DNA of 63,642 nt from assembly GCA_964481135.1 (NCBI GenBank), contig CAYZSW010000006.1, forward strand, positions 1 through 63,642, written 5' to 3'; not shown here. The text below continues a report on this DNA, generated by a model with database tools. The stretch comes from an uncultured Candidatus Saccharibacteria bacterium. Its GTDB lineage: Bacteria; Patescibacteriota; UBA1384; JAMDBS01; DAOVQR01.

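What the first reader, a model, noticed from the sequence alone, without database searches (positions are those of the whole stretch)
11857..12045. A complete tRNA-Thr(CGU) nested inside the D-arm of a second tRNA-Thr(CGU)-like gene, clamped by GC-rich complementary arms
On the minus strand, 12045->12023 reads GCCCACT-TA-GCTT-TAATGGTA-GA, and 11909->11857 reads GC-A-ATTCC-TTCGTAA-GGAAG-AGGTT-ATTGG-TTCAAAT-CCAAT-AGTGGGC-T-CCA. Joined, these make a 76-nt cloverleaf with a perfect 7-bp acceptor stem, a restored D stem (GCTT/GAGC), a canonical T loop and anticodon CGT. The 113 nt between the two pieces have three parts. The first is a 21-nt arm, CCTGCCCGCCAGTCGCTTAGC. The second is an intact 75-nt tRNA-Thr(CGU) (11927..12001). 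The third is a 17-nt arm, GGCGCTTGGCAGACGGG. The arms can pair (CTGCC/GGCAG, CCAG/TTGG, CGC/GCG), so the inner tRNA sits in the loop of a GC-rich hairpin planted in the outer D stem. The inner and outer genes share only about two thirds of their positions, so this is not a simple recent duplication. I see three readings. (a) It is an intron-like or split-tRNA arrangement. RNase P/Z release of the inner tRNA would leave two outer halves held together by the GC clamp, which recalls archaeal split tRNAs but is not something I know from bacteria. (b) A palindromic element carrying a replacement tRNA-Thr inserted into and killed the resident gene. T instead of the near-invariant A at outer position 14 argues for decay. 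(c) It is an assembly chimera. The arm sequence resembles the CCTGTCYGCC / GGCRGACRGG core of the GC islands at 33.2 and 56.9 kb and the junction of the tRNA-Asp repeats.
Basis: partly seen in the sequence, partly recalled or inferred. Interest (0 to 1): 0.9.

Follow-up and report, generated by a model that had tools for sequence, protein, structure and literature searches.

The report, continued
ACG, the codon this tRNA reads, makes up only 2.1 per 1000 codons in the window. From general knowledge, tRNA-Thr(UGU) can usually read ACG. Transient loss should therefore be tolerable, which would permit such turnover.

**8. How it most likely works**

Shown:
- The nest is real.
- An empty-site orthologue exists.
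- A homologous cassette sits in another genome behind a dead host fragment.
- A cargo-less relic sits at the same site in a third allele.
- The arms are related to dispersed hairpins in this window.
- There is no target duplication, no ORF, no BHB motif and no intron model hit.

Inferred:
- Promoter-like sites lie upstream of DUF192, and no terminator-like site lies within the locus. The whole region is therefore transcribed with the operon.
- RNase P and 3'-end processing release the inner tRNA, which is the working tRNA-Thr(CGU).
- The arms form a leader-trailer stem that isolates the folding of the inner tRNA. Such stems around tRNAs are enriched in this clade, 12 of 160 against 1.6 expected.
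- The outer gene is a young relic.
- The cassette spreads between tRNA-Thr alleles either by recombination or repair anchored in the conserved D-arm block, or through a nuclease acting in trans. The GIY-YIG-linked versions in relatives make the nuclease route plausible but do not prove it.

I put 0.68 on this reading: the resident gene disrupted by a tRNA-carrying palindromic cassette, with the inner tRNA functional. My confidence in the particular transfer mechanism is much lower.

**9. Rivals**

- A functional split or spliced outer tRNA (0.05). In its favour are only the intactness of E1 and E2 and their possible pairing. Against it are the lack of any splice motif, the position inside the D stem, the redundancy with the inner tRNA, and the dead hosts in L092 and L113.
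- A two-step origin without dedicated mobility, hairpin first and tRNA captured later (0.2). This fits the L092 relic, but L113 shows that the composite later travelled as a unit.
- Retention of the outer fold as an mRNA processing signal (0.06). This is possible but unnecessary.
- Assembly chimera (0.01). This is refuted.

**10. Comparison with what is known**

The arrangement works like tRNA-targeting integrative elements that repair their target, and like homing cassettes such as T4 SegB in a tRNA cluster (PMC2330249). It fails the defining tests of both: there is no att repeat or integrase, and no endonuclease ORF.

It resembles archaeal D-arm introns and split tRNAs only superficially, because there is no BHB motif.

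It parallels the short, ORF-less, uncharacterised insertions in CPR rRNA genes described in PMC11270868; that paper does not mention tRNA.

None of the papers returned by my literature searches describes a tRNA gene nested in a tRNA gene, or tRNA-gene insertions in CPR bacteria.

I class the finding as a new variant of a known kind: a mobile-element insertion into a tRNA gene, compensated here by a complete cargo tRNA in a palindrome.

**11. Limits**

- Only one complete nest was found, with two related occurrences among about 115 loci.
- There are no RNA data.
- The rest of the genome is unavailable.

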